This document shows positions 1,171-20,000 of a stretch of 20,000 nt of DNA, in pieces; positions within the stretch are counted from its first letter, which is position 1; every line of letters starts with the position of its first letter. The position numbers and the translations under genes were made by a program. This stretch comes from Euglena gracilis (Eukaryota): the NCBI GenBank assembly GCA_039621445.1, contig CP154954.1, forward strand, positions 29,096,338-29,116,337, written 5' to 3'. The notes under the pieces were generated by a model. That model was given only the letters and a program-made list of their open reading frames with translations, was not told the DNA's origin and searched no databases.

Positions 1171-2099
1171 CGTGCAAAAAGGACGATTATGATCCGCCTA
1201 CTCCGGAAAAGAAAAGCAGTAAGAAACACCACAACCAACACCAGACACAAAAAAAACCGGCCGGAAAGAAGAGCAGGCCTCACTGGGGTCTTTTGCGGAG
1301 CCGGAGCTGTCCCACCCCCCCACCACATGAACCAGCGCGAAGGACAGTGCGGGCGCAGCCCAGCCACAGGCAAGCAGCGGCTTGTGCTGTGCACTCCGCG
1401 CCCCCTCCACCTTCCTGTGTCGGTTTGGGTGAGGCACCCCGTCATGGGTGGGGCTGGCACCATCTTGGGCGTCAGCCTGGCCCCAAGGGGCAATCGCAGC
1501 GTCCTGCCCCAGGGTTTTTCTTCGAGGGGGTTCGATTCTTTTTTTTTGTGGGGTCGTCAACCTGTTGCGTGGTGCGTCGGTTGAACCGGTTTCATCTCCA
1601 GATTGCGTTTCTTGTTTGTTGAAGTCTGGGTTCAAAATTGAAATTTCTCGGAAGTTTGCTGATGAGTTTCTCGTTTAGTGAGCGTGAAAAAGAAGTGAGA
1701 ATGGACCGCTTAAAAAAAAACAATCGCCAGTAGGTCCGATCTTGGGACAGTCCTGTGCAAGGAAGGCCCGATTTCTCACAAACGTGCCTCTGCTTTAGGG
1801 ACTCCAGGGGCCGAGGGCACATTTCTGGTTGGCAAAGACACAAAACAATTCCAGCAAACCAAAAAAAATCAACTAAGAAAGACAGAAATAGGAGTTATGG
1901 CACAGCCCTCATCGATGGATATGTCGTCATGCATAACTGGATAAAAGTTTGGAAAAAATTTGTTTGGGTGGTCAGAGAAAGGTGATAGGGAGAGGACAGC
2001 ATAGCATACAGGATGCGCGAAAGATGCGATGCGGACAGGAAAGAGCGCTACTCTTCCAGAATGTCCCGAAAAAGGCGCAGGAGCGCGCAAACGGCGGGT

Positions 2100-4900
2100 G
2101 TGGGTCGAAAAAATGGAAATTAATCCCTTTGCCATCCACCCGCAAATACCCGTTCACTTGGAGAAAATGGGACCAAGGCGCAGAATTTCCTTGGTTGGGG
2201 TACCCAACGGGGTCCCACCCACGCGAACGCAACGCTCAACAATCCGGCACAGGCAATCACCCACACCGCTGGGCAAACCAGCACATCGCTTGTTGGTCCC
2301 CCAAAGACGTACCAATTTCAACACATGGGCATTTTCACAGATTTTTCGGTGCCCACTTTTTGTTTGGATTTTCCCCAAACATCCCGGTCCCTGCAGGTTG
2401 CGCATCCTAATCAACCGTCCACGTTGAGGCACAGGACCCCTGCCGACTGGAAGAACGCTCGCTGGGCATCGAACTGCTGGCAGCGGCCGGCTGAAGCCAT
2501 CGGTCCACAGGTTACTTTGTCTGGGCACAACCCCGCCCCACCTCCTCCTGATTGACAACTGCCCACGACCCCCTCCCAGCCAGGTTATTGCTTAAGGACC
2601 CCGAGGGGGTCCACTGGCTAGCCATTTTACAACACACTAAAAAAAAAATGGACCAGACCCCCCCTCCTGGCTCGAGGGAAGAGGACACCTCCGGGGTCCC
2701 CTCCTGACTGGAAAAAAAATTGCCACCCAAAAGAGTGCGACCTGCATCATTTGTTGATGTTGTGACCCAGGGAACAGGCCCAATTTTGATGATTTTTCAG
2801 GCTGTGCACTAGGCTTGAAAAAAAGTTCAAACCTCTGGGTTTCAACTCTGGGAGACGCGAATTTCCCCCCAAAAAGGGCCAAAACCCCCGTTGTGAATGG
2901 AACAGGCTTCTTTTTACCAACCCGGGGGGAGGGGGGTGCCTTGCGCTCTGGGGTGCCTGCCCATAGTAGGCACCCCATGGGGGGGGGTCGGTTTCGGCCC
3001 CCGGTGCCTGTTGACCCAGCCAATTTTCCTTTGAAAATGGCCCATTTCCGGGCCCCGGTGCCTTCGGATTGCACCACCCACCCAAAATCCTACCCCCCCC
3101 CCCCCCGCTGGGACCTCGGGGGGTCGAAAATACCCCCCCCCCCCCCGCCTGCCCATAGCCCCCCCAGAGGGGGGGGGGGGAGGGTGCGCATTTCCTAAAA
3201 AAGAAGCCTGGATTTTTGAAACCCAACAAACCTCCACCCTTCTCATCGAATACATCAAAAAACTCCCCGAATAGTTCGTAATTGTTCAGGGGGCAAATGT
3301 GGTTCCGCCCCCCGACGAAAGAACATCGGAAATGCCAGTGTGTTCCCTCCACAGGCGGCCACATGGCCGGGTCTGGGAGCTGCTGGCACAGACGGGGTTG
3401 CCCACCACGGCGCAGAGGTCATACCGGGCAGGCCGGGGAATGGGCCAGTGCTCCACCGCCCAGCCGCTGCGCAGAACTGTGGGTTCGCCGTCCAATGCAA
3501 CACGGAATGCACACGGGCACTGCATGGACGAAAGGACACACGTTTGGGCAGAGGTGCCTTTGGAGACGGCCAAGGTGCATCACGTTGATCCCTTTGACCA
3601 TAATTCGGGCTTGGGCGAACGACACGTGTATTACAAAGGGATCGGACGTTTCCGAATGATCATCACGCCGCTCTTCCTGGAATCGAAGCATCATTGCCAT
3701 TCCATTTGGGCAGTCGGCACAACTCTGCAAAAATGGAAACAGGCAGACCGGGACGCCAAATTGGGTTCTTGTGGCCTAAATTCCAAAGTGGTGCCTCTTC
3801 CACCTTGTCCAAGACACGCCAATTTTCAGGGATGGGAGCCTTAGAGCACACAAACGAAGTTGTGTTTACTTGCGCAAATGCGCGCATCAACACACATCAG
3901 TTGTGCGATACCATCTCCTCCTCCGTGACAGCTGGTGAACGCAACTCCTCACGCCAACCATTGGTTTGCATCACGATTACATGGTGATGAAATTTGTGGG
4001 GTCGTTGATATGGGGGGGTGCCAACACCACCACAATTCAATCAAAAAACCTCAGGTGGATTTCCAGAAAATTGTTGACACAGGGGGTGTCTCAACGACAC
4101 GGTGTGTCTTGGACAATACCGAAAGGTGACTTGGGGGTCTCTCACACTTTTTTCTCAAAGAACAATTGAAAGCCGAGAAGGAAACTCCTTGAGCACTGCC
4201 CCAGCCCAAAATCTTCCAGCGAAAGCCCAAGGTCACTGAGGACGCTGTCAGGGTGGGACAAACCACCTTGAGCCAGAACCACCAACCACCTTTTGGCAGA
4301 AATTCTGATGAAATCATTCTTCAATACAAAAATCGGTGAATTGATGTTCTCAAGAGATAAATCACACAAAATGATATCACCCGTTCAAAGAATACCGAAC
4401 AATGATGCTGAAAAGCACAAATCAACAGAAAAATAGCAGAAAAATCCTTCATGTGGTTTCTAATCAGAACATCCAAAAAATCAGACTTTTGGCACTTTGT
4501 CTTGGTGGCGGTTGTAGTTTCTTTTGTTGACATCTGGAAAGACATCGATGAGAGCTTAAAAAGCAGAATCCGCAACATCACAAACCCACGTCCTCCCCAA
4601 ATAGTTGTGGTGGCAAGTTGGGCACAATGCGAGGGGGTGGCAACCAGAGGGGTGGGGGTGAGCCCCACTCATTTCTGAGGGGTCCAGACTCAACCAGAGG
4701 CAAAATCATCAATATGTATCCACATGCAAAGAACCGTCTCTGTGTTGGGGTTCAACAACACAGAGTCAATTCTTTGCCTCTGGATACACATTGTTGAATT
4801 TATGCTGACACCCCCCGATGGAAACGCAGAGCCGCTACAGGCTTAGTGCCAATACAAAGCCGCACGCTTCCGATACCCAAAGCACGCCCGCACTTCAATT
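2100..4900 (-). pseudogene. Degenerate hAT-family transposase remnant, interrupted by MITE insertion(s) at about 2580-3210
   Basis: Motifs in the correct order across frameshifts and stops: CF(Q)H (CxxH, ~4410), IVQDTPCR*DT (cf. QDV.TRWNS, ~4090-4118), VTEEE...LMRAF (~3915), MAMML-DSR (cf. LDPR, ~3680-3700), VL(N)WY...VERC...G...RLGP (cf. hAT dimerisation domain, ~2320-2170). No termini found. Confidence 0.6.
2903..3210. mobile_element. MITE family 1, copy 1 (TIR CAGGCTTCT...AGAAGCCTG)
   Basis: Terminal inverted repeat; internal GGTGCCTGCCCATAG shared with 19482-19921. TSD not recognisable. Confidence 0.75.
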
Positions 4901-5206
4901 AAATTAGGGGGTGGGGCCTGCACAACCTCCTCAAAGGCGCTGGCTTCCAATGCCCCAAAAAATTTGACGGGACACCACAGCACGGGTCTGGGGTGGTGGC
5001 TGGCATGGACGGGGTTGGCGCAGTCCCGCCCTGGGGGCGGGAGAGGTCTGGCGTGGGGCCGGCGCTGCTGGGGCACAGCAGGGCCGGGTCCGCCCCCGTC
5101 AACTCTGCCACGGCGCGCGCGTAGCGGAAGAGGCAATTCTCAGCGAGGTAGCGGTGCCGCCACCGCCCCACCGCCCACAGCTGCTGCAGCGCCGGGCGAC
5201 TCGACA
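4899..5206 (-). CDS. Probable last visible exon of gene B (SSRPALQQLWAVGRWRHRYLAENCLFRYARAVAELTGADPALLC...)
   Basis: ccag acceptor (AG 5208-07); GC-rich coding-like frame to about 5010; first in-frame stop ends at 4899. The true end is uncertain. Confidence 0.5.
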
Positions 5207-6039
5207 CTGGCCGAAGGGGCCCCAGATCACACCCGCTCTGCCCCCAGCCACCCACCAAAACCCACTTCCCCCCTCATCTGACAGGTTGCAAGTACTGGGG
5301 ATCCCTGGCAAGCTCTCAAATGTGACACACACACACACAATTGGGATTGGTGTTGGGCCACGCCTCAGGCGAAGGAGTCGCGGAGGCTTCACGACGTGCC
5401 ATCCGGGGGCACAGGGCACTTGAAAACGGAGAACAACCGCAAATACGGCGCGAAGACTGCCGCATTCACACTTTGAAACGGGCCAAGCAAGCAGCCGAAG
5501 TGGCCGGTACCAACCCTGGGAGCCTTCGGCGGCCCTTAAGGAAATCAAAAAAAAACGGGTCAACTTCGGGATAAAAAAAGTGATTTCTGGCATCTTTGGA
5601 CTGTCACCCATTTGCCCAAAACGTCAACAAAAAATTTTTTTTGGCCTCCCATCCCGGCGGACCACCCTGCCTGGGAGAGGCTGGAACTGTGGGGCTGGGG
5701 GAGAATCGGTGTTCCTGGATCCCTGCTGCAGATTGAGTCCCGAAGGACCTTGCAAGTGAACCAGGGGGTCTGACGGATCAAGAAGGCAATCCCCAACAAA
5801 GAAAGTTATGGCAGGAAAACCTGATTGCAACACACCTTAGCGCTTGGGTGTCCATCTGTCTGTATGTGAAGTATTCTCCCTGCTTTGGAGCTGGGCGGGA
5901 CTCACGGGTGGATGGGAAGACCCTTGCGAAGCGCCGGCGGCTGGCTGCACATCCATTCCAATCCATTCACTGGCTGGGACAACGCAAACAGGCAGGTCCA
6001 CACGCTTGAGTCTTCGCGAGCCACGCACATGCAGTCCGG

Positions 6040-6404
6040 CGTGTGCACACATGCACATGGGAGTGTGCCGTCAGCCACTGCCGGGCCGGGGAGATGGGTG
6101 GGGGGCCCGCGTCCGTCAGCCAGTCATCGGCGCAAACGAAGACGGAGGGCGCGTCGCCCGATGGCCGGATGGAGTTGACGACGGCTCGACAGCCCCTGGC
6201 TGTCGTGCAGGACGACTCCCCCTCACGTCGACGTTCCCAAAAACGTGAATTCCGGCGCCGAGCCCGACCGTGTCAACTTCGGTGGGGAGGAGAGGGGACA
6301 GAGGTTGGCAGCCCCCGCGATGTGGAATGGGATGGAGGTCGGGATGCAGACAGGGGCCGCGCGGCGTGGGGGTCGAAAAGCCCGCCGGCGAGCACCACCA
6401 CCCG
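6040..6404 (-). CDS. Probable gene B exon(s), HAD-like region with several frameshifts (RVVVLAGGLFD ... GIHVFGNVDV/GVVLHDSQG/AVVNSIRPSGDAPSVFVCADDW)
   Basis: Coding-like segments in alternating frames. VVVL-AGG-LFD resembles HAD motif I (hhhDxGGVLhD) but lacks the Asp; VFVCADD resembles motif IV. Inference only. Confidence 0.45.
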
Positions 6405-6748
6405 CTGCAGCGGGGAGGACGTTGCCGTGGGGGCTCCGGCTGGGTTGGAGTGTGGGGGTGGCACTGCGATTCCGGAATGGCCCCGACCACAACCTTGGGA
6501 ACTGGACACTGCTCCTCAACTTGCCCAAGGCGAAGGCCAGAGGATGCAGGACGGACTAAGCCAGTTGGTGAATGGCTTGCACAGATATCAAATCGTCAGC
6601 CCTCTGAAACACACAAAAAAACTGGTTTCAAATGTCCTGCTGGCACCAACAAGGAAAAGCGAAGGCGAACGCAGACTGCACCGGAGATCCCGACCCCCAG
6701 GAACAGGGGGTTGGTCTTCGGCCCCTTCGCGGGCCCCCGGCGCTGCCC

Positions 6749-6914
6749 GCGGGATGGCGAGGCGCTCCGCCTCCGGGATGCGGGCCAGGATGTGGCGGGC
6801 CTTCGTGGGGCTGGTGGACACCGCCTGGCCGATGCCGTGGTGGCCGAGCAGCGCCGCCCCGACGTCCCGCAGCTTCGTCAACACGGGGCCTGCCGTGGCC
6901 TGCACGTGCAGCAC
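6749..6914 (-). CDS. Gene B exon (VLHVQATAGPVLTKLRDVGAALLGHHGIGQAVSTSPTKARHILARIPEAERLAIP)
   Basis: Open GC-rich frame within ORF 6588..7058; TKL..V...L...G resembles the helix ending the AAA_28 domain. Confidence 0.75.
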
Positions 6915-7393
6915 GGGGGCAGGCCAGCTCCGGGCCGGGTGGCAGGGCTGGGCCTTGCGGGGTCCTTGCCCGGGGGGGGGGGTGGAATTACACCAGAGTT
7001 GCTCACCCGGCCAGGCGGAGCAACAAAAAGAGTACTGGTGTAAGGGGTACCTGGCCACTCACCACACAGCAAACTGGGCAGAAGCGAAGATAGCGCCGGC
7101 CATAAACAGACAAAAAGTTTTAGTGCAACTGAGGAGGGAGGTTGGTGCGGCAGGGGCTCTCTCGCCACCTCGGCACGGGGTGTGGCGGGGCTCCCTCCTC
7201 CTCCTGGGTCCTCCTCCTCCCTCCTCCTCCTCCTCGGTCTCCGCGCTGCTGCTTCCCGCTGTGGGGATGCCTGGCATGGAAACGCCTGTCACGGATCCCC
7301 CCCCCGGCTGCATCGGCAATGGGTCCTGAGGCACCACCACCTGGTGCGCAGGGTCCTGATGCGGGGGCCGTACGGCATATTGTTGGCCTGGGC
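6915..7393 (-). other. Non-conventional intron of gene B, 479 nt, with canonical euglenid geometry
   Basis: TAC|GCC-CAGGCCAAC ... GCTGGCCTG-CCCCC|GTG: CAG at +4..+6, CTG at -8..-6, 7-bp perfect stem. Splicing yields in-frame AWAHFPYVLHVQATAGPVLTKLRDV, colinear with the TTD14-type AW.GHPY..VIDN...F.TK segment. Confidence 0.8.
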
Positions 7394-7452
7394 GTAGGGG
7401 AAATGGGCCCACGCCGTGCGGATGGCAACGTTCTGGGCGATGGCCTCCTCTG
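7394..7452 (-). CDS. Gene B exon (EEAIAQNVAIRTAWAHFPY)
   Basis: Matches the family pattern EEA...D.....AW..HP. Confidence 0.8.
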
Positions 7453-7703
7453 GAGGGGGTTGGCGCAGAGACCAGCAGGCTCCGGTCCGGTCGCCCCCCC
7501 CCCAACTGCACTGCACCCGCCCAGAGGTTTTTTTTTTAAAGACCCACACCCTGCCTCCGGTGGCATACCCACTCGGCCTGACTTCCGCTGTGGGTGGGCT
7601 CAGCCGGGCACCCACCCACCCCCGGGTCACAAAACATAAAAAAAAAACGCCCACCCTGCTGTGCTGTCCGGAAGGGGGGGGGGCTCGACGGCCCCAACCC
7701 CGG
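7453..7703 (-). other. Paired-end (non-conventional or intermediate) intron of gene B, containing a small MITE-like insert
   Basis: 5' GGGGTTGGGGC (7701-7691) pairs 10/11 with 3' GCGCCAACCCC (7466-7456). No in-phase GT donor. Splicing gives RRET(A/P)EEA. Confidence 0.65.
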
Positions 7704-7806
7704 CGGCAGTCTCCCGGCGGGCGGCGTTGGTGCCCTTCACGCGGTCGTAGAGCTCCTTCGACTGCAGCGCCACCGTGTCGAGGTGGATGACGCACGAGTA
7801 CCGGTT
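7704..7806 (-). CDS. Gene B exon (NRYSCVIHLDTVALQSKELYDRVKGTNAARRETA)
   Basis: RY..VIHL..A and N.AR.ET motifs of TTD14-like proteins, in the expected order. Confidence 0.85.
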
Positions 7807-8159
7807 GCTGCCGGAGGCCGGCGGACGTTCTGCGGAGGACCACAGCGGAGTCACGTTCGGACAAATTTGTTTTTACCGACCCCCTTTTTACCGACCGAGG
7901 GGGGTCTCAAGCCAGTCAGTCACCCTCCTGGGTTAGCCATTGACTAGGTGATTGTTTGGTCATGTTCAATTGGGAGGCGCACGTCCACCACAACCAATCC
8001 AAAAGGATACAATCGCTTGCATCACCCGTGGGGCGTGCGAAAATTCCACTGAACGGTGTGCTCTCTCTCCCATCGACCCCCTCCTGGCAACAATGGTCCC
8101 GACCACTTCCCACCGGGGGGGGGGGGGGGCGGGGGGGGGGCACCCCCGGCCCCCGCCCT

Positions 8160-8323
8160 TTGCCAACGTCGTCCCACGTCATGTCGGCGGAGCGCAGCAG
8201 CGCCTCGTACTCCGCCTCGGAGATGAACGCGCGGGGGTCCAGCAGGCCGCGGTCGAACAGCACCACGACGGGCCGCCCGGTGGCGCGGGCGAACTGCTCC
8301 GCGTAGCGGATGAGGCTGTCCTC
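8160..8323 (-). CDS. Gene B exon (EDSLIRYAEQFARATGRPVVVLFDRGLLDPRAFISEAEYEALLRSADMTWDDVG)
   Basis: hhhhDRG..D..AF motif characteristic of the TTD14/AAA_28 family. Boundaries approximate. Confidence 0.85.
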
Positions 8324-9408
8324 CGAGTGGGGGCACGGCGGCGGCGGGGGAGATGGACGGGTCCAGGAATTGGTCGGGGGAAACACATACATGGAACAAG
8401 CGCAAAAATGCACTGTCTTCACATCTTTTTGCTACAAATCGGGATAATGTATGATGTACATGATATGATGATATCGGGGACTTGCTGACATACGGAAATA
8501 TGGACAGGGGTCCAGGCATACCATATCATCACGCATCAACGAAGCCAGCCGCCACACCACCCTGGTTGCCGCAAAAAATGGAACATCTCTCGCTGCCACA
8601 CCACTCTGCAGGAGGGCAGTCCTCCGCAACAGGAGCCTGACAAGAATCGGGCGGATGCAATGTGCCAGTGGCACCCTGTTGCCATGCTGAGGCAGAGGCG
8701 AAAGGAATCCACCTGGACTTATGCATTGGCGCCGAATGCCCATCCCCGCCCCAATCCCTGGGGTGGTGAGGCGACCGCTGGGGTAGACGTCCGGCAGAAC
8801 CAGAACAAGCAAAGAAAAAAAACGGTACAGGTGGGGAGGAATTGAGAAACACTCTGCTCTTGGTAGGGCGAGTCTATGCGAAGGGCTCCCCTCGACGCAG
8901 GGCCTCGTTGTTGGCGGGGAACTCAGTCCCCTGGCGAGACCACGAGGTGGCCTTCTCGGTGCAATGGGCGGCCTCGCTGCCTGTGCGCCACGAGCCCACT
9001 GGTTGATTGTGGGATCGAAAATGGACGTGTGCCGAATTGCCCGAAAACTAATGCCCAATGCAACTCAGCCTTGGTAAAGGGAGCGACACAAAGAGGCTGT
9101 TAAGGGCAGCGGGAACCAAACAACCATGCATAAAGAAAACCTCCCGCACGCTGAAGGAATTGAACCGAAAATATCAGCACCCCGAGAAACACCGGAAAGG
9201 TGGTGTGCGGGAGGGTGATCGGACCCCCCATACCCACCAGGGTAGGATTTCGGCCCCCCGCAATCCATATGGCCCACACAGCCTGGCCAGGGGGAGGATG
9301 GAAAAAGTGTTCCTCGGAGCCGGGGTGACTTCTCAGTTTCGTTTCCAGGCTTCCAGTGCCATGCGAAGCTTCTCCTTCCAGAGGAGCTGACTGCGCGGGC
9401 GGCCCCAC

Positions 9409-9541
9409 CCCGGAGGCAGCGGGGCGGCGGAACACGGCGTAGCCGTTCTCCTCCAACAGGGTCCGCAGGTACTGCAGGCTGGAGCTCTTGCCCGCTGCGG
9501 GCCCCCCGGTCGGGGGCGGCGGACCACATCGCCGGAACACA
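9409..9541 (-). CDS. Gene B P-loop exon (DVVR..TGGPAAGKSSSLQYLRTLLEENGYAVFR); TTD14/AAA_28-like NTPase
   Basis: Walker A TGGPAAGKS in the context typical of TTD14-like proteins (IVLTGGPCGGKTT...G..VFRVPE). An apparent 1-nt frameshift lies just before TGGP. Confidence 0.8.
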
Positions 9542-10619
9542 CTGCCGGGGGGGGGGGGGCACTCGCACGGTTGAGGAACCCTCTGGCCCGGGTTGACGCC
9601 GGGGCAGAGAGGCGTCATTGTTTCGCATGGATGGGTCCGCGTCAGGCACGCCTGGTCCGCATCTGTCGCGGACCCCGTTTGAAACGTCCGCCAACAGACA
9701 CGAAAGCAGGGAGGCAGCCACTGTCCCCAGACACAGCACCTGGGCACTGGCATGGAAGGGGTGTCTTCAGCGGCTGGGGTTGCTTGCGCGCACGTGCACA
9801 CAATTAGGGGTCTTTGAGGAAAAGGTGTCCGTGTTATGCAGGGGGGTGTTCAAATTTCATTGTGCCTCCACCCTCGATTTTGAAAACGCCCAGCTTTATG
9901 AAAATGGCACTGCAGTCAGTCGGTCTGATTTTGTGAGAAAATGAGAAATGAGTATTCGCACACAAACACACCACACACACCATACACATGTCGAACTGCA
10001 TGTACAAGTGGTTGTGTTGGGTATTATAACAAAAGATTGAAAGAGAATAAGCATCCCGAGATAAGATTGTGGCCCGCCGCTCAAAACCACCAAATGTAGC
10101 CGACCAGTGCAGCTGCTGTTTGATTCTGGCCGCTCCAGCACGGTCACCAGGCTTGCATGCTGACAAGGCCACTGGGCGGCTTGGGGCAAGGGGGCTCTCG
10201 TTTCGTTCGTCCCGTGTCCCAACCATGGAGGTATGGAGGTGAGGTCATGCCAATCTCCCCAAGAACCAACACCTCTAAGCAACAAAATTCTCTTTGAGGA
10301 TCTGGCTTGGCTGGGAGGGGGCCACCCGACCCGACCTCAGGGGGATCAGGGGGACCAAATTATTTAAAGGGGCCTTTTTGGTTCCTACTGTTTTCAAAAT
10401 TGATGAACAGAAAGACTGGAAATGAAATGACACGCCAAATAAGAATACCAATAACATCAGATAAACTCAATCGACAATATCGTGGAATTCCCACGTATGA
10501 AGCGGCAGTGATGCCGACACTTTTTGTTGACTTCGAAGCGGCGGATTCCTCGGCTGCCCTCTTCGCTTCGACCTCCCCTGCCGGAAGGGAGGCTGCTTCA
10601 CCCAGCCCCCCCCCCCCCA

Positions 10620-10780
10620 AGGCGCCTTGCGGGCGGGAGAGCCCCGCGGTGCCGCGGGCCGCCCGGCCAGCGGCCGGCGCGGGGGCCAGGCATCGCCAGG
10701 GGCAGCGCAGGCCCATCAGGGCGCATGGGCCCCACCGCGTAGGGGGGCGGCAGGCACCGCGTCACGGGGCCATGGGGCTG
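10620..10780 (-). CDS. Possible first exon of gene B (Arg/Ala/Gly/Pro-rich, transit-peptide-like, e.g. MGLRCPWRCLAPAPAAGRAARGTAGLSRPQ)
   Basis: GC-rich island. It is followed on the minus strand by G13 (10606-18) that could pair with C13 (9547-59) just before the P-loop exon. Start codon and frame uncertain. Confidence 0.35.
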
Positions 10781-11415
10781 GGGCTGGGCGCGAAAGCAAC
10801 GTGTCCCCGTCTGCCGTCGGCCAACAGCAATGGAAGGGGGGCAAAAAAAACCAAACAAAAGTGTGCGAGAAGAAATTTTTTCAACGAGCAACTGTGTGGG
10901 GCGACAGGCATTCACTGCATTTGACGCACTGTACTTTTGCTTGTCGGGTGGCGGCAAATTATTCAAAAATAATAACAAGATTAAATTATTCTGGAACTGA
11001 GCCTTTCCCCTGTGACGTTTTTGCAAGCATGCAACGTTGGAAAGCACCTCTGAAAAAAAAATAACGAAAATCCCGTGTCTGAGGACCGGAAAAGATGGAT
11101 AAGGACCAAGGGGGGGTTGCTTTGACAAAGGAAAAAACCTTACTCCAAAAAAATCCAGCGCTTCGCGGCGAAAAATATCTGGTTTCTGGGGCTCACTGTT
11201 GAACTTACTGGCACGTGGATGGAAAAAAAATCAACAATATCTCACCAAATCAGACACCAGAAATTTCTGAAATATATAAATTTTCGAGGAATTTATCTTA
11301 AAAATGCAAACAAAATAATAAGCCTCCTGAGAAGATGACCTTCAAATCAGGGTAAAGACCGGGGTGGTGGTGTTTTGACAAGGGTGGTGCTTATTTCCTT
11401 GCTTTAGACAAGAGG

Positions 11416-12149
11416 CAGGGGGGGGGGAAATGCGCCGGACGGCCCTCGGAAAAAATGCGCAAAAATGCGCAAAAAAATGCGCAAAAAATGCGCTGAGTTT
11501 GTGACATTCCTAAGGGAAAAAGGACTTAGAAAAATTTCCAACAATAAACCCAAAATTAAACCAAAATCACCAAAAAGAGCTGAAATGAAGGCATTTTGGC
11601 CAAAAAATGCATGACCAAGGTGTCACTCTCCGTTCACCATAACCAACAATGTCAGCCATGGTGCCCCTTACTTGTGACCAGGGGAGTGGGAGTCCCGCCT
11701 TGGTTACGTGTCAATGTGGGGTCTCTGAAACCCCTAGTGTCCTCATCGTCATTGGATGAGTACCCACACCTCATCACCCAAGGGTTTTCTCTTGAGGCCG
11801 GTCCCTTGGGTGGAAAAAAAGTGCGAAAATGGGTTCGTTGGTTACAGAAATGGGCCAGTTGATCGTGGGCAAAATTCGGTGAGCATGTGATTTGGGTGGA
11901 AAATGTGCAAAAATGGCAAAATGTGCAAAATTGGGCAAAAAAATGCGCAAAAATGCGGAAAATGGCAAAATGTGCAAAATTGGGCAAAAAAATGCGCAAA
12001 AAATGCCCAAAAAATGGAAAATGTGCAAAAAATGGGGGGGGGATGTACAAAAAATGCGCAAAAATGCGCAAAATTTTGAAAAATTGACAAAAATGCGCAA
12101 AAATGCGCAAAAATGCGGAAAAATGCGCAGCGCATTCCCCCCCCCCCTG
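11416..12149. mobile_element. MITE family 2, 734 bp, with subterminal AAAAATGCGC tandem arrays
   Basis: TIR CAG(G)nAAATGCGC / GCGCATT(C)nTG; flanks CAAGAGG / CAAGAGG(G), a 7-8 bp TSD. Confidence 0.85.
11820..12130. repeat. ~10-bp minisatellite (AAAAATGCGC / AAAATGTGC / AAAATTGGGC) inside MITE family 2; shorter array at 11451-11492
   Basis: Directly visible tandem units. They explain the repetitive K/C/A and F/A/H ORFs in the track. Confidence 0.9.
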
Positions 12150-12253
12150 CAAGAGGGAACACAAAAAAAATCGTGCTTGACGGCTTGAGCCCACCCCTAC
12201 TTGCATGTCCTCTGCAAGCTGGAGTCCACCAAAATTGACATATTGGCCTCCCC

Positions 12254-13179
12254 CAGGGATGTATGGGAAGCGAGGGGTCTGGACCCCCCACCCAAGATGG
12301 AGTTGGACCCCCCCTCCCACCTCAAAACTGAAGAGGGCCAGGAAAATTTTCGGTTTTGCGGACGGGCAAACGCCCGGAAACTAGACCGAAATTGTTGCTG
12401 AATTTTTCTTCAAAAATGAATACAAAAATGCTTTTTTGACACATTCTTTTTGTGGAAAACAACAGAAATCAAAAAATGTGCATGCAATATGCTCAAAAGT
12501 GAGGAAAAAAAGACTTTTTTTTTTAAATCCACTTTCATTGCGCGCTGGAAGAAAATATTCGCTAATTTTTTTATTTTTGGAATCTGTCAAGAAGAGGGGG
12601 CACCCCCTCCCAACATCTAGGGAGAGGGTGGTCTGGACGTCCCCCCCCCCTACCACCTTACCCCTCCCAGAGGGGGGGGGGGTTGGGACAGGTTTTGTGT
12701 ACTGCTGAGCTCTTTACGTGCCTGATGGTGCCATGCCGTAGCAGATGTCTGAGGCATGTAACTGCCAGGGCGGACCTTCGGCCCAACCTGGCAGCCCGGC
12801 CCAGCCCACCTCAATGTGGCAAACCGGAGGAAGCGGCCCATCCCAGCAATGGCGGCCCAGCGGCCCGGCGGCTCGGCCCAGCCCGTTTCCAAAACATCTC
12901 AGAAATGAAGCAAAATTAAAGGAAATGTCCTACGACCTAAAATAAAGCCCTTGTTGGTCCTATCCAATGGTACTTTGATTTCCCCGCAACTCCAAGGTGA
13001 GCCCGAGTTCTGGCCATTTTGAAGCCGTTTGGCTCCACATCTGTACTGTTTTGGGTTCTACCCCCCCTTTCCCCCAGTGGTAAACTTTGCTCTTGCTCTA
13101 AAAATGTGAAAGCTCAGCGAACCCCCCCAACCCCCACTACCACCAACCTCAAAACCGAAGTGCTTCCCATCTGTCTGAG
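12254..13179. mobile_element. Probable MITE family 3 (possibly nested), right TIR partly decayed
   Basis: Left CAGGGATGTATGGGAAGC vs right GCTTCCCAT+9 nt (same length as the expected TIR); flanks GCCTCCCC / TCCTCCCC (7/8); internal repeat ACCTCAAAAC(T/C)GAAG. Confidence 0.5.
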
Positions 13180-13771
13180 TCCTCCCCTTATTGACCAGAG
13201 TTCATGGCACATTTTAAAAGAAAATTAACTTTATTGGCAGCAAACAGGGATGATGGCCTCATTGGGCCGCACAATTTTGGAGCGGGAATTGATTTGCTGC
13301 CCATACTCCTGTGTCCTCATCGCAGTGCAGTCGCTGCAGCCCTCTCCCCAGACAATATGGCACCGTGGGACAAGAATTATATACAAAGTAAAATGACTTT
13401 TGCAACAAGAACCACCCATGAAAATGATTGCAATATGGGGTGATTTTGGTCATTTTACCTGTTATTTGGCCAAATTTGAGTAGTTTTGCCACTACATCTC
13501 ATCGCGTCTATGCCAATGACCACATCATCTGTCCAAAAAAAAAAGCTAAACGCAGCCGCAATACATCAAATGCCAGACCATTGTGCCAATGGCGCACACA
13601 TTGATTCACGACGTCCGATGATAGTGGCACACAGCGTCTGGAGCACTTCCTCCCCATGCATACATAAGAGAGCGGGCCACCTCGTGCTGCAGGTGTGCCA
13701 CCCAGTCGAACGTTACCGGCAAAACTGGTCACGGTCCTCGCGGATGGTGTGAGTGTGTGGGCCAAGGATGA

Positions 13772-13845
13772 CTATCCGATCCCCTTCCCGGACACGTAGC
13801 GCACCACGGCTGCATCGTCGTCGGGCGAGACGAAGATCAACCTTT
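13772..13845 (-). CDS. Gene A terminal coding exon (KRLIFVSPDDDAAVVRYVSGKGIG*)
   Basis: Acceptor tctcttcctctgcgccacag (phase 1) fits the upstream donor; TAG ends at 13772. Confidence 0.75.
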
Positions 13846-15604
13846 CTGTGGCGCAGAGGAAGAGACACAATAGGATGCAAAGCCGTACGCCCCTCAGCTG
13901 AAATGAGTGACCCCACCCAATAGACTTCGGCTGCCCAAATAATATCCCCCCCCACACTGCCGTGAAAGGGAAAAGGCACAAGGAGAAAAATAACAAACAT
14001 CGATGAAATTTGGTCAGAAATTATAACAAAAATCTTTTCAAAAAATCATTGTTTTCAAAAATATGACTTGTGCAAAAATCACCGAAATTGCTTGTAGACC
14101 AATCTTTGACTTTTGAAAATTTGCCCAGATGATAAGTTTTTTTTTTTAATTAACCCCCCCCCCTTCAGCAGGTGTGTATGAAAAAGTCTCGTTGGGGGTT
14201 CAGACCCCCCACCCGGGAGGTGGGGAGTAACCCCCCACCCATTACAGAACCACACAAGGAAAATATCCTTCGGCACCGAAAAAATAAAATTTTGTCCTAA
14301 AGATCGACGCCCCGGAAATACGGGAAGGCCTGGTGGGGGGGGAGCCTCCTGAGGGTGGGGTCCCACCCACCACCCATTTTGGGGTTTGGGGATTCCCATA
14401 AAGCCCTGTCCCCTGGACCCTGACTTTGGGTGTCCAAACAATTTACTGTACTGGGGGGCTTTGGACCATTGCACTGACTGGGACCCCAGAGCGGCGGACT
14501 TGTGGTTTTAACACCAGAACAATTCCATTTTTCTTTGAGCCGTGTGGTCTTTTGTGACTGGCTCAGACAGGGCCGAGAGCCATTTTTTTTTGCTGAACAA
14601 CGTCGCGGCAATTTTGAGCAGCACAAAACACACGTTCCCCCCCCCTTTGTTTGTGTACCCTCTTCTGAAACATTGTGGAGGTCAGCCAGGGGGAGCCATG
14701 AAGAATTAAAACTGGTCAAAATTCAGTTATGGCTCAATTGCAACGCACCCATGTCGCATATTCATGTTGCAAAAATGGGGCCAGAGGCGGCCAGAAAGTA
14801 GCAAACCCTTGTCGCACACCATATGGGACACCCAACTGCAATGCATACAAAAATCTGTGCAACGAATCAGCACGGGTTGTTTCAACAATTGGGAATTAAA
14901 AATGGCTCCAAAAACTGGACGGTTTTGGGGGGGATGGAGGGATTTGGGCACTTCCGCCAGAATCAACAAAAAGTGGTATTGCGTCTCTTGAAAATCATCA
15001 ATTCAAAAAATGGCAGACAAATTTGCATGGTTTCTTTGGCCAGGAAATAGTTGGGCATTTTTTGGCCGAACCAATTTTGTACTCGACGCCCACCCACCGT
15101 ACCCCAGAGAGTGACCCAACTATTTTGCTTAATACAAAATGCACTTAAGGCGGTGCCCTTCTGGGATCTCCATGACTTTGGCCCTAAACCCAGCTGCTTT
15201 GGTTTCACTGGCTCCAACCCAAAGCTCAAATATAAAACATCCATGCTCTTTTGTGATGGCATTGATAAGACGTTGCTTCAGCTTTTGTTACAGTTGCGTG
15301 CTTGCAGCTGCACACCGTTTCTACCTTCTCTTTCAAATCTGGTTGTGTTGCAACCAACCATCCAGACCCGATTGCAACCAAAACAGGTTGGCGTTGTTGT
15401 CTGGTTCCCACTGTGGCCTGCTTTTGACGGGAGCACGGGGCGTTTGGTGGGTTATGGTCCGTTTTTTTTGGGTTATGGCTTGGTGGGTTGGCCTGTGGTA
15501 GGTTTGCGACCACTTCCTTATATGAGAAATAGAACGGCCGCAAAAACACCAGTTCCCCCCCCCCGAGAAAACTTAATTGCCTGAAAAGATCAACCCAACA
15601 CGAC

Positions 15605-16069
15605 ACTTGCTAACCCCCCCAATATTAGGCCCCCCCCCCCCAATGTAAAGCCCCCCGGGGGTTTGGTTTTGCCGCCCAAATATAAAGCCCCCCCCCAAAT
15701 ATAAAGCCCCCCCGGGGGGTTTGGTTTTGCCGCCCAAATATAAAGCCCCCCCCCTGACGCGGAGCCAGACGCTGGTGTCATTCAGGAAAAAGTGGAAAAA
15801 TTTTGGGCAGATACACCATTTTTTTTCCACCAAAAATGCTCCATTTTGGATTAAAAAAATGCACATTTTGTGAAAAATAGGAGGCAAACAGCGAAAATTT
15901 GGCAAAAATTGGTGTTTGGCCACAATTGATGGCCGCTGAAAGTCATAGAGGCCACCCCAAAAAGTTTGATCCCCCCCCCAAATATAAAGCCCCCCCCCTG
16001 AGGGTGTTGAAATCCCGTCCGAATATAAAGCCGGGGGGGGGGCTTTATATTTGGGGGGGTTTATCACGC
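15605..16069. mobile_element. Fold-back MITE-like element built from AAATATAAAGCCCCCC units, inside a gene A intron
   Basis: At least five direct copies (15677-16033), an inverted copy GGCTTTATATTT (16041-52), and imperfectly inverted ends. Confidence 0.7.
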
Positions 16070-16408
16070 AGCCTTTATGACTGCCTATTTTGCCTGCGGT
16101 GGGCACCCACCGAAGCCGCGCTTGGCCCAGGCCATGATTGAAGGTGAGGCCGGGGGGCCAACCTTGGGGGGGGGGAGCAAATTTGCAAGTCAAGAATTTT
16201 GGCGGCCATGTGCAAAAGGGCAAAGGCCAACTTCAGGGGGGCCAAGTTTGTATTTAAGGAGGAGGGAGGCCAAGCGTCAGGGGGGGGCCAAGCGGTGCAA
16301 GTATGCCCCTCTGTCTGTCGGAATCCACTTGACCCTCCCCCCCAAGAACGTCAGGGCCAACCCCCCGCCCCCTCAAGGGGAGGCGACAGCAAGAGGACAA
16401 CGGCACAC

Positions 16409-16516
16409 TTCGACAGGCGAGCCGGTCCTCCAGGCTGAGGAGGTGGGCCGCGTCGTGCAGCTCGACCACCACCAGCGTGTCCACGTCCACCGTGGCCGCC
16501 GACCCTTCCGCCAGCA
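16409..16516 (-). CDS. Gene A exon (VLAEGSAATVDVDTLVVVELHDAAHLLSLEDRLACR)
   Basis: Branch-like gctgac, pyrimidine tract and cgcag acceptor (phase 1); donor GTGTGC (phase 1); 108 nt. Confidence 0.85.
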
Positions 16517-17712
16517 CTGCGACGCGGGCGGGAGCGGGAACGGGTCAGCAATGTCCCTCACCCAAGCCCGGTTGGAACACCTCTGTGTGCCTCTCTGGGA
16601 CACAATCTGGGGTCTGGAGGCGTGAGGCGGGGAGTGAGGCCGGGCATTGAAGCAAAAACAATGACGTTCTGCACGTCTTGGTTCTCTCAGAATTATGATG
16701 AAGTATACCGATTGTTTTGACCCCCACTGACCCAGAAATACAAAAAGGCGATTATTTCACATTTTGTGGTCAAAATTCGAAAATGAGGACCCTCAAATTT
16801 CATCTTCAAAAAATCATTTTTGGTGAGAAACAGCGAAATTTTCGAGAAACATTTGTCAGGTGACAGGTCAGCGAGTACGTAGGTTGGTGACAGGCCCCCT
16901 AGTCCCTCAGGTCAATGAGGACAGGGCTTAGATGACAGTTTCCCGAGGATTATAGTTTCCTGGGGGTAGGTAGGTATGAAATGGTTTAAAATCAAGGCAT
17001 TAGGGCCTAACCCCTTCCAAATAAAATCACCCTGCACCGACTGGCAAAATATCCAAAATAAGACCCCCAATAGAACCCCCCCCGTGACGGCGGAAATTGC
17101 TGGAGACGGTGAAAGAATCCCCTGAAAAATTACCAAAAAAGACCCAATTTCAGCTGCAAAAAAATGATGGAATTTGAAAATTGGGGTTTTGAAATCAAAA
17201 AAAAATACAAAAAAATATCAACCGGTCATATTTTTGGGTCCGTTGCTGGAAACTTCCAGGGGAGTCTAATTTTGGGGGGAGATCTTATTTTTGATTTTTT
17301 TTTGAAAAACACTGAAAAATTCCTTTGGCTCTTCGCGCCGGGGACCAAAATCATCGAAAATGTGAAAAAAGCGAAAAAAGTTGCCAATTGTGCAAAAAAA
17401 AATCACCAAAACTTTGAACCCCCAATTCCGCCCATTTTAAACCTTTTTCGCCCCTCAAAATCCGGAATCTGTTACCATCCAGCAGCCCTTTGGGAGATTG
17501 CAAAATAAATAAAATTCGGGGGAGAGGGGGATCAAATTTGAAGATCAAATCTGATCCAGGATGAAGGGGACGCCGTAAACTCCTCGGCCCAAAAGAAAAT
17601 GCTCCATTTCACCAAAAATTTGCAAAAAAAGGGCAACAGTTCAAGGGGCAGAGAGGGGGGGGGAATAATGGGGGCAAAGCAAAAAAAATAATACGAGTTC
17701 GCTGGCACACAC

Positions 17713-17813
17713 CGCAGCGCAGGGAATCGTCCACCAGCAAGACTGCCCACTCATCACCACCGCCGTCGGCGTCTCCTACACTGCACTTCACGAAGCTGTC
17801 CACCTCGAACTGC
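17713..17813 (-). CDS. Gene A exon (QFEVDSFVKCSVGDADGGGDEWAVLLVDDSLRC)
   Basis: Acceptor ttctttctcaacag (phase 2) and donor GTGTGT (phase 1); both phases fit the neighbouring exons. Confidence 0.85.
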
Positions 17814-18216
17814 CTGTTGAGAAAGAATGGACAATTTGCAATTATTTGCAATTGCAAATTGTGTATGAATCACGCATTGACGCTGTGTGAATTAAAATGT
17901 GTGTGTCTGAAAACAATGAAAGAAATTGAAGATAGCTTCGCAACACACGCTTGTGAAACCACCAGATTTAATTGGCCACCAATTGACCATATTGAGGTTT
18001 AATTTGTTCCAATTTTTCAATATTTTGGTGACATATAATTTTTATTACTCTTTGCTGTTCCAGTAAAGGTCAAACTTTTCTCACATGTCATCATCGTCGT
18101 AATTTTTTTTGTAAACCCATGCTGCAGTGTGAGGCAACTGTTGATTCATTCACCGTTGGGTGCCGCGTCCAAAACGTGCGTGCGGCGGCATCGGCATGGC
18201 TGCCGCGGGGCCACAC

Positions 18217-18354
18217 CGGTCCTCCACGGAGCCAGCCGCCCTCGTGGCCTGGAACCAGTGGCAGCCCCGGCCCTGCACGTCGGCCAGCAGGAGGGCGTGG
18301 ACGGCGGCGGACCGGGCGTACCACGCCATGCGGAACGCGCTGTCCAGCAGCCCG
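18217..18354 (-). CDS. Gene A exon (GLLDSAFRMAWYARSAAVHALLLADVQGRGCHWFQATRAAGSVEDR)
   Basis: Coding-like frame within ORF 18150..18476. Ends at a phase-2 GTGTGG donor that matches the next acceptor phase. Confidence 0.8.
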
Positions 18355-18834
18355 TCCCGGGAGGGCGGTGGCTGGACTGGGGAAATGGGCCGGGGGGGGG
18401 GGATGAGTGCGGCAGTCCCCAGGGGTATGGAATGGTGGCACGCAAGGCAAACGAGAATCTCGCTTCCACCAGCCATAATGAGGCGATGAGTGAGAAGGTG
18501 GACACCCCAAACGTACCATGCAGGGAAATAAAAAAGATCGCCAAAAGGATGGAAAAAATCCTTTTCTGGGGTGAAATTAAAAAAATCACAGGCAAATCAC
18601 ATATGAATTTTTTTTAAAAAAAATCCCAGCGAAGTCGAAACTAACAAGACTAAGAGTCATTGCAAAACGTGTGCAGGAAGACCATAAACACATGGGCGTG
18701 CCTTGACAAACTGCAAGAGCTGGACCAAGAACTGCTGCGACCAAGATTGACGAACACTCCGGAGACCATCGCAAAAGCAAATGCTCAGAAAATGTGCCAT
18801 TTGTGCCGGGGGGGGGTCCACCGCCGCCCTGCCG
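18355..18834 (-). other. Non-conventional (paired-end) intron of gene A
   Basis: 5' end CGG-CAGGGCGGCGGTGGAC is complementary to 3' end GTCCAGCCACCGCCCTC (about 14 pairs). Splicing gives in-frame QLLAGLLDSAF. Exact boundary uncertain by a few nt; a GT-AG alternative (18821-18372) exists. Confidence 0.65.
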
Positions 18835-18926
18835 GCCAACAGCTGTGCCAGGGCAGCCAGCCGAGCCCGGGGCCCGGCGTCCGCCAGCACCACCAGCTCG
18901 TACCGGCGCCGGGGCGTCCCCCCGCG
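18835..18926 (-). CDS. Gene A, first exon visible in the window (RGGTPRRRYELVVLADAGPRARLAALAQLLA); unknown protein; upstream exons lie outside the window
   Basis: GC-rich open frame after ctccag (AG 18928-27). An alternative non-conventional start at 18941 follows CTG+CCCCA, also in frame. The 3' boundary is set by the stem of the next intron. Confidence 0.65.
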
Positions 18927-19010
18927 CTGGAGCCGGTACGGTGGGGCAGGGCCGGGGCTCGGGCCGGCGACTCAGACGCCCCCGTCAACACCTGGTGTGC
19001 TGGGGGGGGA

Positions 19011-19320
19011 TAATAGAATAAATTATAATTGAATTCAAAAATTAAACAAACAATAATATAAACAAATAATAATATAAATATAAACAATACAAATACAAAC
19101 ATAAACATAAAATAATAATATAAACATAAATATAAATATAACATAACATAAATAACACAAACATATAAACATAAACATAAACAATAATACAAATATAAAC
19201 AATAATATAAATGATGTAACATACATATATGTATATATATGTATACGACATGAATTAGCATATAATATAATGTATGATAATATAATAGATGATGCATCAA
19301 TATGGAAAATAGACCTAATT
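19011..19320. repeat. AT-rich low-complexity tract, degenerate (ATAAAC/ATA)n
   Basis: Abrupt shift to near-pure A/T with occasional C between GC-rich flanks. Confidence 0.9.
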
Positions 19321-19481
19321 ATTTGCCGGGGGCTAAGGTGCGCGAAGGGTTGGGCCGGAAGCCGGTCGTTTCTGTTGCAGTTCCCCAGGGATGCTCACGC
19401 AAGGGTTTTGATTTGTGGCTCCCGTCTGACACTTGGAGACGCACGCATCGTGGGAAGCAGGGTTCCCACAGAGAGCAGAGC

Positions 19482-19921
19482 CAGGCTTCTTCTTCTTCTT
19501 ACCAACCCCCGGGGGTGCCTTGTGCTTTGGGGTGCCTGCCCCAGGCCGTTTTTTGTATCAACCGCCGGGGGGGGGATCCGGAGTGCCTGTGAGTGCCTAC
19601 CCAGGCAGGCACCCCCCCCCCCCCCGGAGGGGGTCGGATTTCGGCCTGTGCCCAGGCGCATTCCTGTGAAAATACGCCATTTTTGGCTCCTTCGGCGCCG
19701 GGGTCTGTGCCAGGGCACTTTTGGCCGTGTGCCCTACCCCCCCACCCCGGCCCGGGGGTACCCCCCGGGGGGGGTCAGATTGGGAGTGCCTTGGAGTGCC
19801 TGTCCAGGCAGGCCCCCCCCCCCCTGGGGTGGGGTCGGCACCCGACTAAAATACAGCCCTGGTGCCTGCCCATAGCAGGCGCCCCTCCAGGGGGGTGCGA
19901 CTTTCCTTAAACAGAAGCCTG
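19482..19921. mobile_element. MITE family 1, copy 2, 440 bp, with 8-bp TSD
   Basis: TIR CAGGCTTCT/AGAAGCCTG; flanks AGCAGAGC / GGCAGAGC (7/8); internal repeats GTGCCTG...CCAGGC. Confidence 0.85.
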
Positions 19922-20000
19922 GGCAGAGCCCCTCGCTCCCTTAAGCGCACTTCCAAACCAGGCAAACCAGGGAAAATTGCATGCAGGTGTTGGTGAAAAT

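What the first reader, a model, noticed from the sequence alone, without database searches (positions are those of the whole stretch)
2100..19930. hAT transposase, CAG...CTG MITEs and non-conventional introns form a possible intron-generating system
Seen: a hAT-like transposase relic; at least three MITE families starting with CAG (two also ending CTG) with 7-8 bp TSDs; and introns with CAG/CTG-type paired ends. Established: hAT elements make 8-bp TSDs and often start with CAG/TAG; euglenid non-conventional introns have CAG at +4..+6 pairing with CTG at -8..-6. Inference: 3+5=8 nt outside the paired ends equals one hAT TSD, so such a MITE landing in an exon would splice out scarlessly. A MITE origin for these introns has been proposed in general terms; I cannot confirm whether the hAT/8-bp link is already published.
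Basis: partly seen in the sequence, partly recalled or inferred. Interest (0 to 1): 0.85.

Follow-up and report, generated by a model that had tools for sequence, protein, structure and literature searches.

The report
Euglena MITEs beside nonconventional introns
This stretch of Euglena DNA holds an ordinary gene cut by fifteen of the odd "nonconventional" introns, plus small transposon relics whose ends look like those intron ends, but no hAT transposase and no intron that is itself such a relic.

Summary
Partly confirmed. RNA contigs and reads define a minus-strand AAA_28 P-loop gene (1849-10756; 93-100% per exon to EG_transcript_8976) with 15 introns. None can be read as GT-AG or GC-AG. Five of 15 have a terminal helix with 3+5 geometry, and 4 of 15 fit the published code N3-CDG...CH'G-N5-6|R.

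Three short non-coding elements start with CAG, end with CTG and are flanked by direct repeats:
- 2798-3210: exact 7 bp.
- 11416-12149: exact 7 bp.
- 19482-19921: 8 bp matching at 7 of 8, or exact 7 bp plus one G.

The "hAT relic" is an SPSERVF-like stretch (ORF 2123-2317, minus) inside a 3'UTR intron. It has no support from Pfam, homologue or PDB searches. None of 309 ORFs of 45 aa or more hits a transposase family.

No intron coincides with an element. Junction repeats are 0-6 nt, never 7 or 8. With 7-bp duplications, the 3+5 cut would leave a 1-nt deletion.

The MITE-origin idea is already published. The hAT/8-bp arithmetic did not turn up in my literature searches. One published young intron with 8-nt junction repeats fits it (PMC4770533).

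The parts
1849..10756 (-). AAA_28 P-loop NTPase gene with 16 exons and 15 nonconventional introns. Exons in + coordinates: 1849-2076, 2407-2475, 3369-3431, 4204-4243, 5037-5190, 6085-6181, 6362-6423, 6742-6913, 7393-7449, 7704-7806, 8159-8327, 8567-8605, 8896-8965, 9429-9509, 10081-10163, 10634-10756. Start codon near 10716; stop in exon 2407-2475.
   Evidence: Joints in 3 contig sets and raw RNA reads. Spliced ORF. P0001 EG_transcript_8976, 445 aa, matches the exons at 93-100%. PF13521 AAA_28, E=2.5e-12.
2077..2406 (-). Nonconventional intron in the 3'UTR. It contains ORF 2123-2317 (minus) with ...FSPSERVFAGG..., the only hAT-like stretch I found.
   Evidence: Joint 2076>2407. No Pfam family at E up to 10. 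0 of 15 candidates in the homologue search. 0 PDB chains.
2798..3210 (.). el1, family A copy. Starts CAGGCT and ends AGCCTG, with an exact 7-bp flanking repeat GATTTTT (2791-2797 and 3211-3217). A second, better 5' TIR copy starts at 2903. Lies inside intron 2476-3368.
   Evidence: GATTTTT occurs only 4 times and CAGGCT 9 times in the window. The outer TIR is only 6 nt, so the 5' boundary is less certain than the 3' one.
4244..5036 (-). Nonconventional intron with the canonical code: CCC-CAG...CTG-ACAGC|G.
6914..7392 (-). Nonconventional intron with the canonical code after a 1-nt slide: GCC-CAG...CTG-CCCCC|G. Holds a high-copy internal repeat at about 6983-7090.
   Evidence: Word depth up to about 20,000, and up to 24 contigs at one place.
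7807..8158 (-). Nonconventional intron with the CGG...CCG variant of the code. Its boundaries are inferred rather than listed among the joints shown.
   Evidence: Contig arithmetic, tblastn, code test.
9510..10080 (-). Nonconventional intron with the CGG...CCG variant of the code. By eye its ends pair over about 13 nt with one mismatch; the longest perfect stem found by script is 7 bp.
11416..12149 (.). el2, family B MITE-like element, intergenic (upstream of the gene). Ends CAGGGGGGGGGGAAATGCGC / GCGCATTCCCCCCCCCCCTG. Exact 7-bp flanking repeat CAAGAGG (11409-11415 and 12150-12156). Subterminal arrays of a 10-11-nt AAAAATGCGC unit.
   Evidence: I21; ends match at 21 of 25. Arrays at 11450-11493 and 11900-12129. 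The AATGCGC motif occurs 16 times against 2.77 expected, 13 of them here. Many RNA contigs map here.
12247..12684 (.). Family C repeat. Left arm 12247-12353 resembles 14162-14273, and right arm 12502-12684 resembles the reverse of 14152-14298. CAGG lies near the start. Ends and flanking repeats are undefined.
   Evidence: (D20).
15544..15917 (.). Possible further TIR element without CAG ends (AAACACCAGT / ATTGGTGTTT), with flanks GGCCGCAA/GGCCACAA (7 of 8). A single such pair is not significant.
   Evidence: 83 of 200 simulations give at least one such pair.
19482..19921 (.). el3, family A copy. Ends CAGGCTTCTT...CAGAAGCCTG. Flanks AGCAGAGC (19474-19481) and GGCAGAGC (19922-19929), which reads either as 8 bp matching at 7 of 8, or as exact 7 bp GCAGAGC if the element ends CTGG.
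   Evidence: 9-17 distinct RNA contigs at 19599 and 19825.

Best explanation
The window is ordinary euglenid nuclear DNA, most likely Euglena gracilis judging by the label of the best protein hit.

What is there:
- A housekeeping-type AAA_28 P-loop gene, interrupted by 15 nonconventional introns. These are removed by the lineage's non-GT-AG pathway, which measures 3 nt before a CDG and 5-6 nt after the paired CH'G.
- At least three relics of non-autonomous cut-and-paste DNA transposons (MITE-like), in the surrounding intergenic DNA and inside one intron. They have 5'-CAGG...CCTG-3' ends and a shared subterminal AATGCGC motif.
- Their target-site duplications are 7 bp in two cases and 7 or 8 bp in the third.

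What is not there: no transposase gene of hAT or any other kind, and no intron that is a copy of these elements.

Shown: the gene model, the intron class, and the element ends and flanks.
Inferred: that the flanks are target-site duplications made by a transposase, that AATGCGC is its binding motif, and that the elements belong to multi-copy families.

The likeness between element ends and intron ends is real at the motif level. It fits the published MITE-origin hypothesis, but this window does not demonstrate the link.
For: - Gene and introns.
- Published code: PMC12501133, abstract and sections 8 and 11. 4 of 15 introns fit it.
- Elements.
- Multi-copy status: 5-24 distinct RNA contigs laid at 95% likeness or more on single places in el2, el3 and the internal repeats, and bin word depths of 400-2,800 against about 100-190 for the gene's exon contigs.
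- No transposase: 0 transposase families among 183 ORFs of 70 aa or more and 126 ORFs of 45-69 aa.
- No known RNA genes: Rfam 0, tRNA 0.
Against: - Only three elements were found. el1's outer TIR is just 6 nt, and el3's duplication length is ambiguous.
- Copy number rests on RNA contig depth, not on a genome assembly; none is held.
- Metagenome scans found no further copies.
- ORFs under 45 aa and frameshifted relics were not scanned across the whole window, so a very decayed transposase could be missed.
- The SPSERVF pentapeptide match is unusual. My own rough estimate is about 0.02 chance occurrences in the six-frame translation, and this estimate was made after the fact.
Confidence: 0.72

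Rival explanations
1. hAT transposases mobilise CAG...CTG MITEs that make 8-bp duplications. When such a MITE lands in an exon, the nonconventional machinery removes 3 nt + MITE + 5 nt, which equals the MITE plus one duplication copy, so the mRNA is scarless and a new intron is born.
For: - The 3 and 5(-6) nt spacers are experimentally fixed (PMC12501133, section 8).
- A recently gained intron in E. agilis gapC has 8-nt junction repeats (PMC4770533, passage).
- el3 has 8-bp flanks matching at 7 of 8, and an N3+N5 cut restores its empty site exactly on the + strand.
- CAGGG fits the hAT end consensus YARNG (recalled, not from a call).
- Ds, a hAT element, can act as an intron in maize (seen here only as a title in the reference list of PMC3935182).
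Against: - No hAT domain or homologue in the window.
- 'hAT' occurs 0 times in the three key euglenid papers, and no Euglena-hAT paper turned up.
- el1 and el2 have exact 7-bp duplications, so N3+N5 gives a 1-nt deletion.
- The 7-bp sum needs N3+N4, which reached only about 20% of wild-type transcript level in the knock-in assay.
- 0 of 15 introns have 7 or 8 identical flank letters.
Confidence: 0.08
2. The same arithmetic without hAT. Nonconventional introns descend from CAG...CTG-ended DNA transposons of another superfamily, and the spacer sum mirrors that family's duplication length. Merlin makes 8-bp duplications and is documented in E. gracilis. P-like elements make 7-8 bp (recalled). The superfamily could also be an undescribed one.
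For:
- Merlin families with 8-bp duplications are reported in E. gracilis (PMC8101967, passages).
- MITE-like origin and 'TSD-like' junction repeats are already proposed (PMC3935182; PMC11282704; PMC12501133 discussion).
- Junction identity exceeds the permuted control: mean 3.4 against 2.4 of 8, with 44 of 10,000 permutations reaching it.
Against: - Merlin TIRs begin with GG, not CAG.
- The excess junction identity sits almost wholly at positions -1 and -2.
- The window's elements give 7, 7 and 7-or-8.
- No intron here belongs to an element family.
- The authors of the 8-nt case read it as double-strand-break repair.
Confidence: 0.25
3. The 'elements' are chance pairings in a genome full of G and C runs and short palindromes, and are not mobile DNA.
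For: - 365 TIR-like pairs exist in the window, mostly CCC/GGG runs.
- 83 of 200 simulations give at least one TIR+flank pair.
- el1's outer TIR is 6 nt.
Against: - el2 combines ends matching at 21 of 25 with an exact 7-mer flank.
- The ends of el1 and el3 coincide with the limits of their mutual homology.
- The real count of 3 is reached in only 3 of 200 simulations.
- Many distinct RNA contigs map on the elements.
- The shared AATGCGC motif occurs 16 times against 2.77 expected; 0 of 200 shuffles reach 16.
Confidence: 0.05

Closest known systems
Euglenid nonconventional introns and their proposed MITE-like origin (Milanowski et al. 2014 and 2016; Mob DNA 2024 review; Nomura et al. 2025)
   Same: Non-GT-AG borders, a terminal helix, CAG at +4..+6 and CTG at -8..-6, short direct repeats at junctions, and the N3/N5-6 spacers. 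All of these are seen in this window's 15 introns to varying degrees.
   Different: Those papers argue from intron ends alone. The 2014 paper states that no transposable elements had yet been identified in euglenid genomes. Here, free-standing CAG...CTG elements with flanking duplications lie outside intron boundaries. None of the passages I read equates the spacer sum with a duplication length or names hAT.
Introner elements of Micromonas, Aureococcus, dinoflagellates and others (as summarised in PMC11282704)
   Same: Short DNA transposons with TIRs and duplications, proposed to become introns, with the duplication contributing to scarless removal.
   Different: Introners form families of near-identical introns removed by the spliceosome. 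Here the 15 introns show no mutual similarity, are not GT-AG, and none is a copy of the elements.
hAT superfamily MITEs (for example the Ds-type elements of plants)
   Same: Ends beginning CAG, subterminal short repeats, non-coding, under 1 kb, and duplications near 8 bp.
   Different: No hAT transposase domain was found. Two of three duplications are 7 bp, not 8. The hAT target consensus (recalled as nTnnnnAn) is not matched by the el3 flanks.
Merlin transposons of Euglena gracilis (PMC8101967)
   Same: A documented DNA transposon in this organism with 8-bp duplications.
   Different: Merlin TIRs start with GG. No DDE_Tnp_IS1595 hit in the window.

Membership tests
hAT superfamily | Transposase with the hAT dimerisation domain (Pfam Dimer_Tnp_hAT) and a DDE core | tested here: not met
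   0 transposase families among 309 ORFs of 45 aa or more. The SPSERVF ORF gave nothing in Pfam at E up to 10, in the homologue search or in PDB.
hAT superfamily | 8-bp target-site duplication | tested here: not met
   el1 and el2 have exact 7 bp. el3 has 8 bp matching at 7 of 8, or exact 7 bp plus one G.
hAT superfamily | TIR ends fitting YARNG (consensus recalled, not from a call) | tested here: inconclusive
   CAGGG (el2) fits. CAGGC (el1, el3) fails at the fifth base.
MITE (non-autonomous TIR element) | Short, non-coding, with terminal inverted repeats | tested here: met
   Lengths 413, 734 and 440 bp. Ends match at 8 (inner copy 16), 21 and 13 of 25. No Pfam family in their ORFs.
MITE (non-autonomous TIR element) | Target-site duplication directly abutting the ends | tested here: met
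   GATTTTT, CAAGAGG, and (A/G)GCAGAGC.
MITE (non-autonomous TIR element) | Many copies in the genome, and an autonomous partner with the same ends | tested here: inconclusive
   Two family A copies in the window and several distinct RNA contigs per place. No genome is held, the metagenome scans gave no true copies, and no partner was seen.
Euglenid nonconventional introns | Borders that are not GT-AG or GC-AG | tested here: met
   15 of 15.
Euglenid nonconventional introns | Signature 5'-N3CDG...CH'GN5-6|R with complementary D/H' (PMC12501133) | tested here: inconclusive
   4 of 15 fit fully. A further 3 have a helix in the 3+5 register without CDG/CH'G. The paper reports 61.2% genome-wide in E. 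agilis.
Euglenid nonconventional introns | Excision as full-length circular RNA | not testable with these tools
   The one read-laying run reported no back-joints among the rows shown; 38 joints were not shown.
Introner-like intron families | Introns that are copies of one repeated element | tested here: not met
   Self-BLAST of the window gave 29 HSP pairs, none between two introns. 0 of 15 introns appear in the TIR+TSD scan.

The most novel reading that the evidence does not exclude
The fixed 3 + 5 nt spacers of the Euglena nonconventional splicing code mirror the 8-bp target-site duplication of a CAG...CTG-ended DNA transposon lineage. A fresh exonic insertion is then removed from the RNA together with exactly one duplication copy, and becomes an intron at once with no scar. 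el3 in this window (7 of 8 flank identity, exact restoration under N3+N5) and the published young gapC intron with 8-nt junction repeats would be two snapshots of that process. The 7-bp elements would be a sister lineage that cannot do it efficiently.
Probability: 0.25. Interest if true: 0.85.

Novelty: new member of a known kind. Interest (0 to 1): 0.5.

Why it matters
About 70% of Euglena introns are nonconventional, and neither their origin nor their removal machinery is known. The MITE-origin idea has so far rested on the inverted repeats of the introns themselves. Free-standing elements with the same CAG...CTG ends and clear flanking duplications would make the idea directly testable genome-wide.

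The spacer-equals-duplication arithmetic gives a sharp prediction: young introns should carry junction repeats of the family's duplication length. If it held, it would explain why the code measures exactly 3 and 5 nt. This window alone does not show it, and the hAT part is unsupported.

Tried and rejected
SEARCHES AND SCANS THAT LED NOWHERE
I used ORF lists and short read-throughs instead.
- No whole genome is held for this window.
- The look-up of sequencing runs listed no holder on record as RNA. I laid three runs that are only guessed to be RNA, plus one raw RNA run.
- Only 15 of 53 joints were printed, so introns of the second transcript could not be defined. That transcript has an exon at 13560-13845 and probable exons near 16410-16530, 17700-17815, 18180-18370 and 18810-18950.
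- A homologue search with the 18180-18371 exon found nothing.
- Metagenome scans for element ends: 0 loci for family A. For family B there were 52 loci, none with both ends or more than 20-40 nt of likeness. I take these as chance matches.
- Rfam and tRNA scans: none.
- My first TIR scan, which required an 'outermost pair', missed the CAG elements because one more base pairs outside them. It was replaced.
- Protein Atlas search on the 381-aa ORF: no hit at 0.9 or above.

CANDIDATES CONSIDERED AND DROPPED
- The hAT-looking stretch at 3289-3579 (minus) is a coding exon.
- The stretch at 13150-13449 (minus) has no support.
- The hairpin at 4695-4782 (CAGAGGCAAA...TTTGCCTCTG) has flanks matching at 4 of 8 by my own reading, so there is no duplication.

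LITERATURE ACCESS
- Paper reading closed, so Additional file 1, Table S3 of PMC4770533 (repeat lengths for all the introns they analysed) was not seen.
- The SI appendix PDF of PMC12501133, which holds the slide-distance figures, cannot be read here.

Full report
WHAT THE WINDOW IS

The sequence is GC-patchy eukaryotic DNA, rich in G and C runs. No genome is held for it. Laying three contig sets that are only guessed to be RNA, plus one set of raw RNA reads, gave a clean chain of joints. Fourteen of the 15 joints listed, out of 53 found, belong to one transcript. A fifteenth intron (7807-8158) follows from that contig's own coordinates and from protein mapping.

Spliced on the minus strand, the exons give one long frame with a Walker-A motif, ending in exon 2407-2475. 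A single-exon query found a 445-aa protein labelled EG_transcript_8976 by EukProt. It maps to every coding exon at 93-100% and carries PF13521 AAA_28 at E=2.5e-12. From that label, the organism is a euglenid and most likely Euglena gracilis. That is an inference from the label, not from a named record.

THE INTRONS

- None of the 15 can be read as GT-AG or GC-AG at any position the junction repeats allow.
- Five of 15 have a perfect helix of 5 bp or more with exactly 8 nt left outside it. The expectation is 0.5 per 15 when donors and acceptors are mismatched (210 pairs).
- Two are textbook N3-CAG...CTG-N5 (4244-5036 and 6914-7392). Two use CGG...CCG (7807-8158 and 9510-10080). So 4 of 15 meet the full published signature 5'-N3CDG...CH'GN5-6|R (signature from PMC12501133, abstract and sections 8 and 11).

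THE hAT RELIC

The finding starts at 2100, and the only hAT-like stretch I found is ...FCALVPFSPSERVFAGG... in a 65-aa ORF (2123-2317, minus). That ORF lies inside the 3'UTR intron 2077-2406.
- Pfam gave nothing for it at E up to 10, alone or read through its stops with X.
- The 5.8-billion-protein search found 15 word-sharing candidates, none scoring E of 10 or better.
- No PDB chain matched.
- A second hAT-looking stretch (ARYDL...ASSSQT, 3369-3431 minus) is simply a coding exon of the AAA_28 gene.
- Across the whole window, 183 ORFs of 70 aa or more and 126 ORFs of 45-69 aa gave no transposase family. The only hits were sub-threshold ones to unrelated families.

I rate the relic as unsupported. 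A five-residue SERVF match is uncommon by my own rough estimate, but that estimate was made after the fact.

THE ELEMENTS

el2 (11416-12149):
- Its ends match at 21 of 25.
- It has an exact 7-bp flank, CAAGAGG, and arrays of a 10-11-nt AAAAATGCGC unit near both ends.

Family A has two copies whose homology begins at CAGGCT and ends at AGCCTG.
- el3 (19482-19921) has flanks AGCAGAGC/GGCAGAGC.
- The other copy ends at 3210. It has a good inner TIR at 2903 with no flank repeat, and an outer start at 2798 (CAGGCT again) with an exact 7-bp flank, GATTTTT.
- GATTTTT occurs only 4 times in the window and CAGGCT 9 times. I therefore take the outer boundary as real, with less certainty than for el2.

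Support that these are real elements:
- The TIR-plus-flank scan gave 3 pairs, against a mean of 0.525 in 200 simulations; 3 of 200 reached 3. One of the three is a non-CAG candidate that is not significant on its own.
- AATGCGC is enriched: 16 against 2.77 expected, with 0 of 200 shuffles reaching 16. It sits subterminally in el1 and el2, which suggests a shared binding motif (inference).
- Many distinct RNA contigs map on these stretches, so the families are multi-copy.
- A third repeat with CAGG near its start exists, but its ends are unclear.

The lengths I measure are 7, 7, and 7-or-8.

DO THE ELEMENTS AND INTRONS CONNECT HERE?

- No intron coincides with an element. el1 is nested inside intron 2476-3368, and el2 and el3 lie outside the gene.
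- Introns share no sequence with one another.
- Junction repeats are 0-6 nt. Letter identity between donor and acceptor windows exceeds the control (3.4 against 2.4 of 8; 44 of 10,000 permutations). The excess sits at positions -1 (13 of 15) and -2 (9 of 15) only.
- Anchored on the helix or on the code, the 8-nt flanks match at 2-4 of 8.
- A virtual N3+N5 cut restores the empty site for el3 but removes one nucleotide too many for el1 and el2. Those two would need N3+N4, a spacer that reached only about 20% of wild-type transcript level in the knock-in assay.

WHAT IS IN PRINT

- The MITE-like origin was proposed in 2014 (PMC3935182, passages). It was repeated with "TSD-like" junction repeats in 2024 (PMC11282704, passages) and again in 2025 (PMC12501133, discussion passage).
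- 'hAT' occurs 0 times in those three texts.
- Five library searches found no paper that links Euglena introns to hAT or that equates the spacer sum with a duplication length.
- One published datum fits the arithmetic strikingly. A nonconventional intron gained in a single E. agilis strain has eight-nucleotide direct repeats at its junctions. Its authors read this as double-strand-break repair (PMC4770533, passage).
- Merlin, with 8-bp duplications but GG-starting TIRs, is the DNA transposon reported from E. gracilis in the one relevant paper my searches returned (PMC8101967, passages).
- I could not see the supplements that list repeat lengths.

VERDICT

The end-motif likeness and the 3+5 ruler are real, and there is outside support from one published case (n=1). 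But the hAT link has no evidence, and two of three local duplications are 7 bp rather than 8.

What is new is modest: concrete CAG...CTG elements with flanking duplications in euglenid DNA. They turn a ten-year-old hypothesis into a countable test.

Noticed in passing
window 2-1144 (minus), running off the left end: A 381-aa open frame with no Pfam family belongs to a large, diverse protein family. There are 381 cluster representatives at E up to 1e-3 and 23 at E up to 1e-30, with members up to 1452 aa. Nine long members also lack any Pfam family, and the Atlas search gave nothing at 0.9 or above. It could be a lineage-specific repeated gene or the protein of an undescribed mobile element. RNA depth here is near zero.
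   Followed up: partly
window 6983-7090, inside intron 6914-7392: A very high-copy transcribed repeat. Word depth reaches about 20,000, up to 24 distinct contigs map at one place, and many reads break off at 6983, 7026, 7051, 7068 and 7079. No Rfam family or tRNA matches it.
   Followed up: partly
window 18372-18809 (minus), putative intron of a second gene: Both putative junctions carry the same run of about 12 nt (C-run plus GGC), as read by eye from the translated exon neighbourhoods. If the intron is real, it would be slidable over about 12 nt. No RNA joint for it was among the rows shown.
   Followed up: no
window 4702-4801: A 100-bp palindrome with 78% arm identity lies inside intron 4244-5036. 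A CAGAGGCAAA...TTTGCCTCTG pairing lies next to it, with no flanking duplication.
   Followed up: partly
window 19028-19250: An AT-rich array of short degenerate repeats (ATAAAC-like units) lies between the probable second gene and el3 (family D2).
   Followed up: no
window 15612-16060: Repeated units AAATATAAAGCCCCCCC in direct and inverted orientation; the arms 15973-15998 and 16034-16059 are 100% complementary (I4). RNA word depth is moderately high.
   Followed up: no
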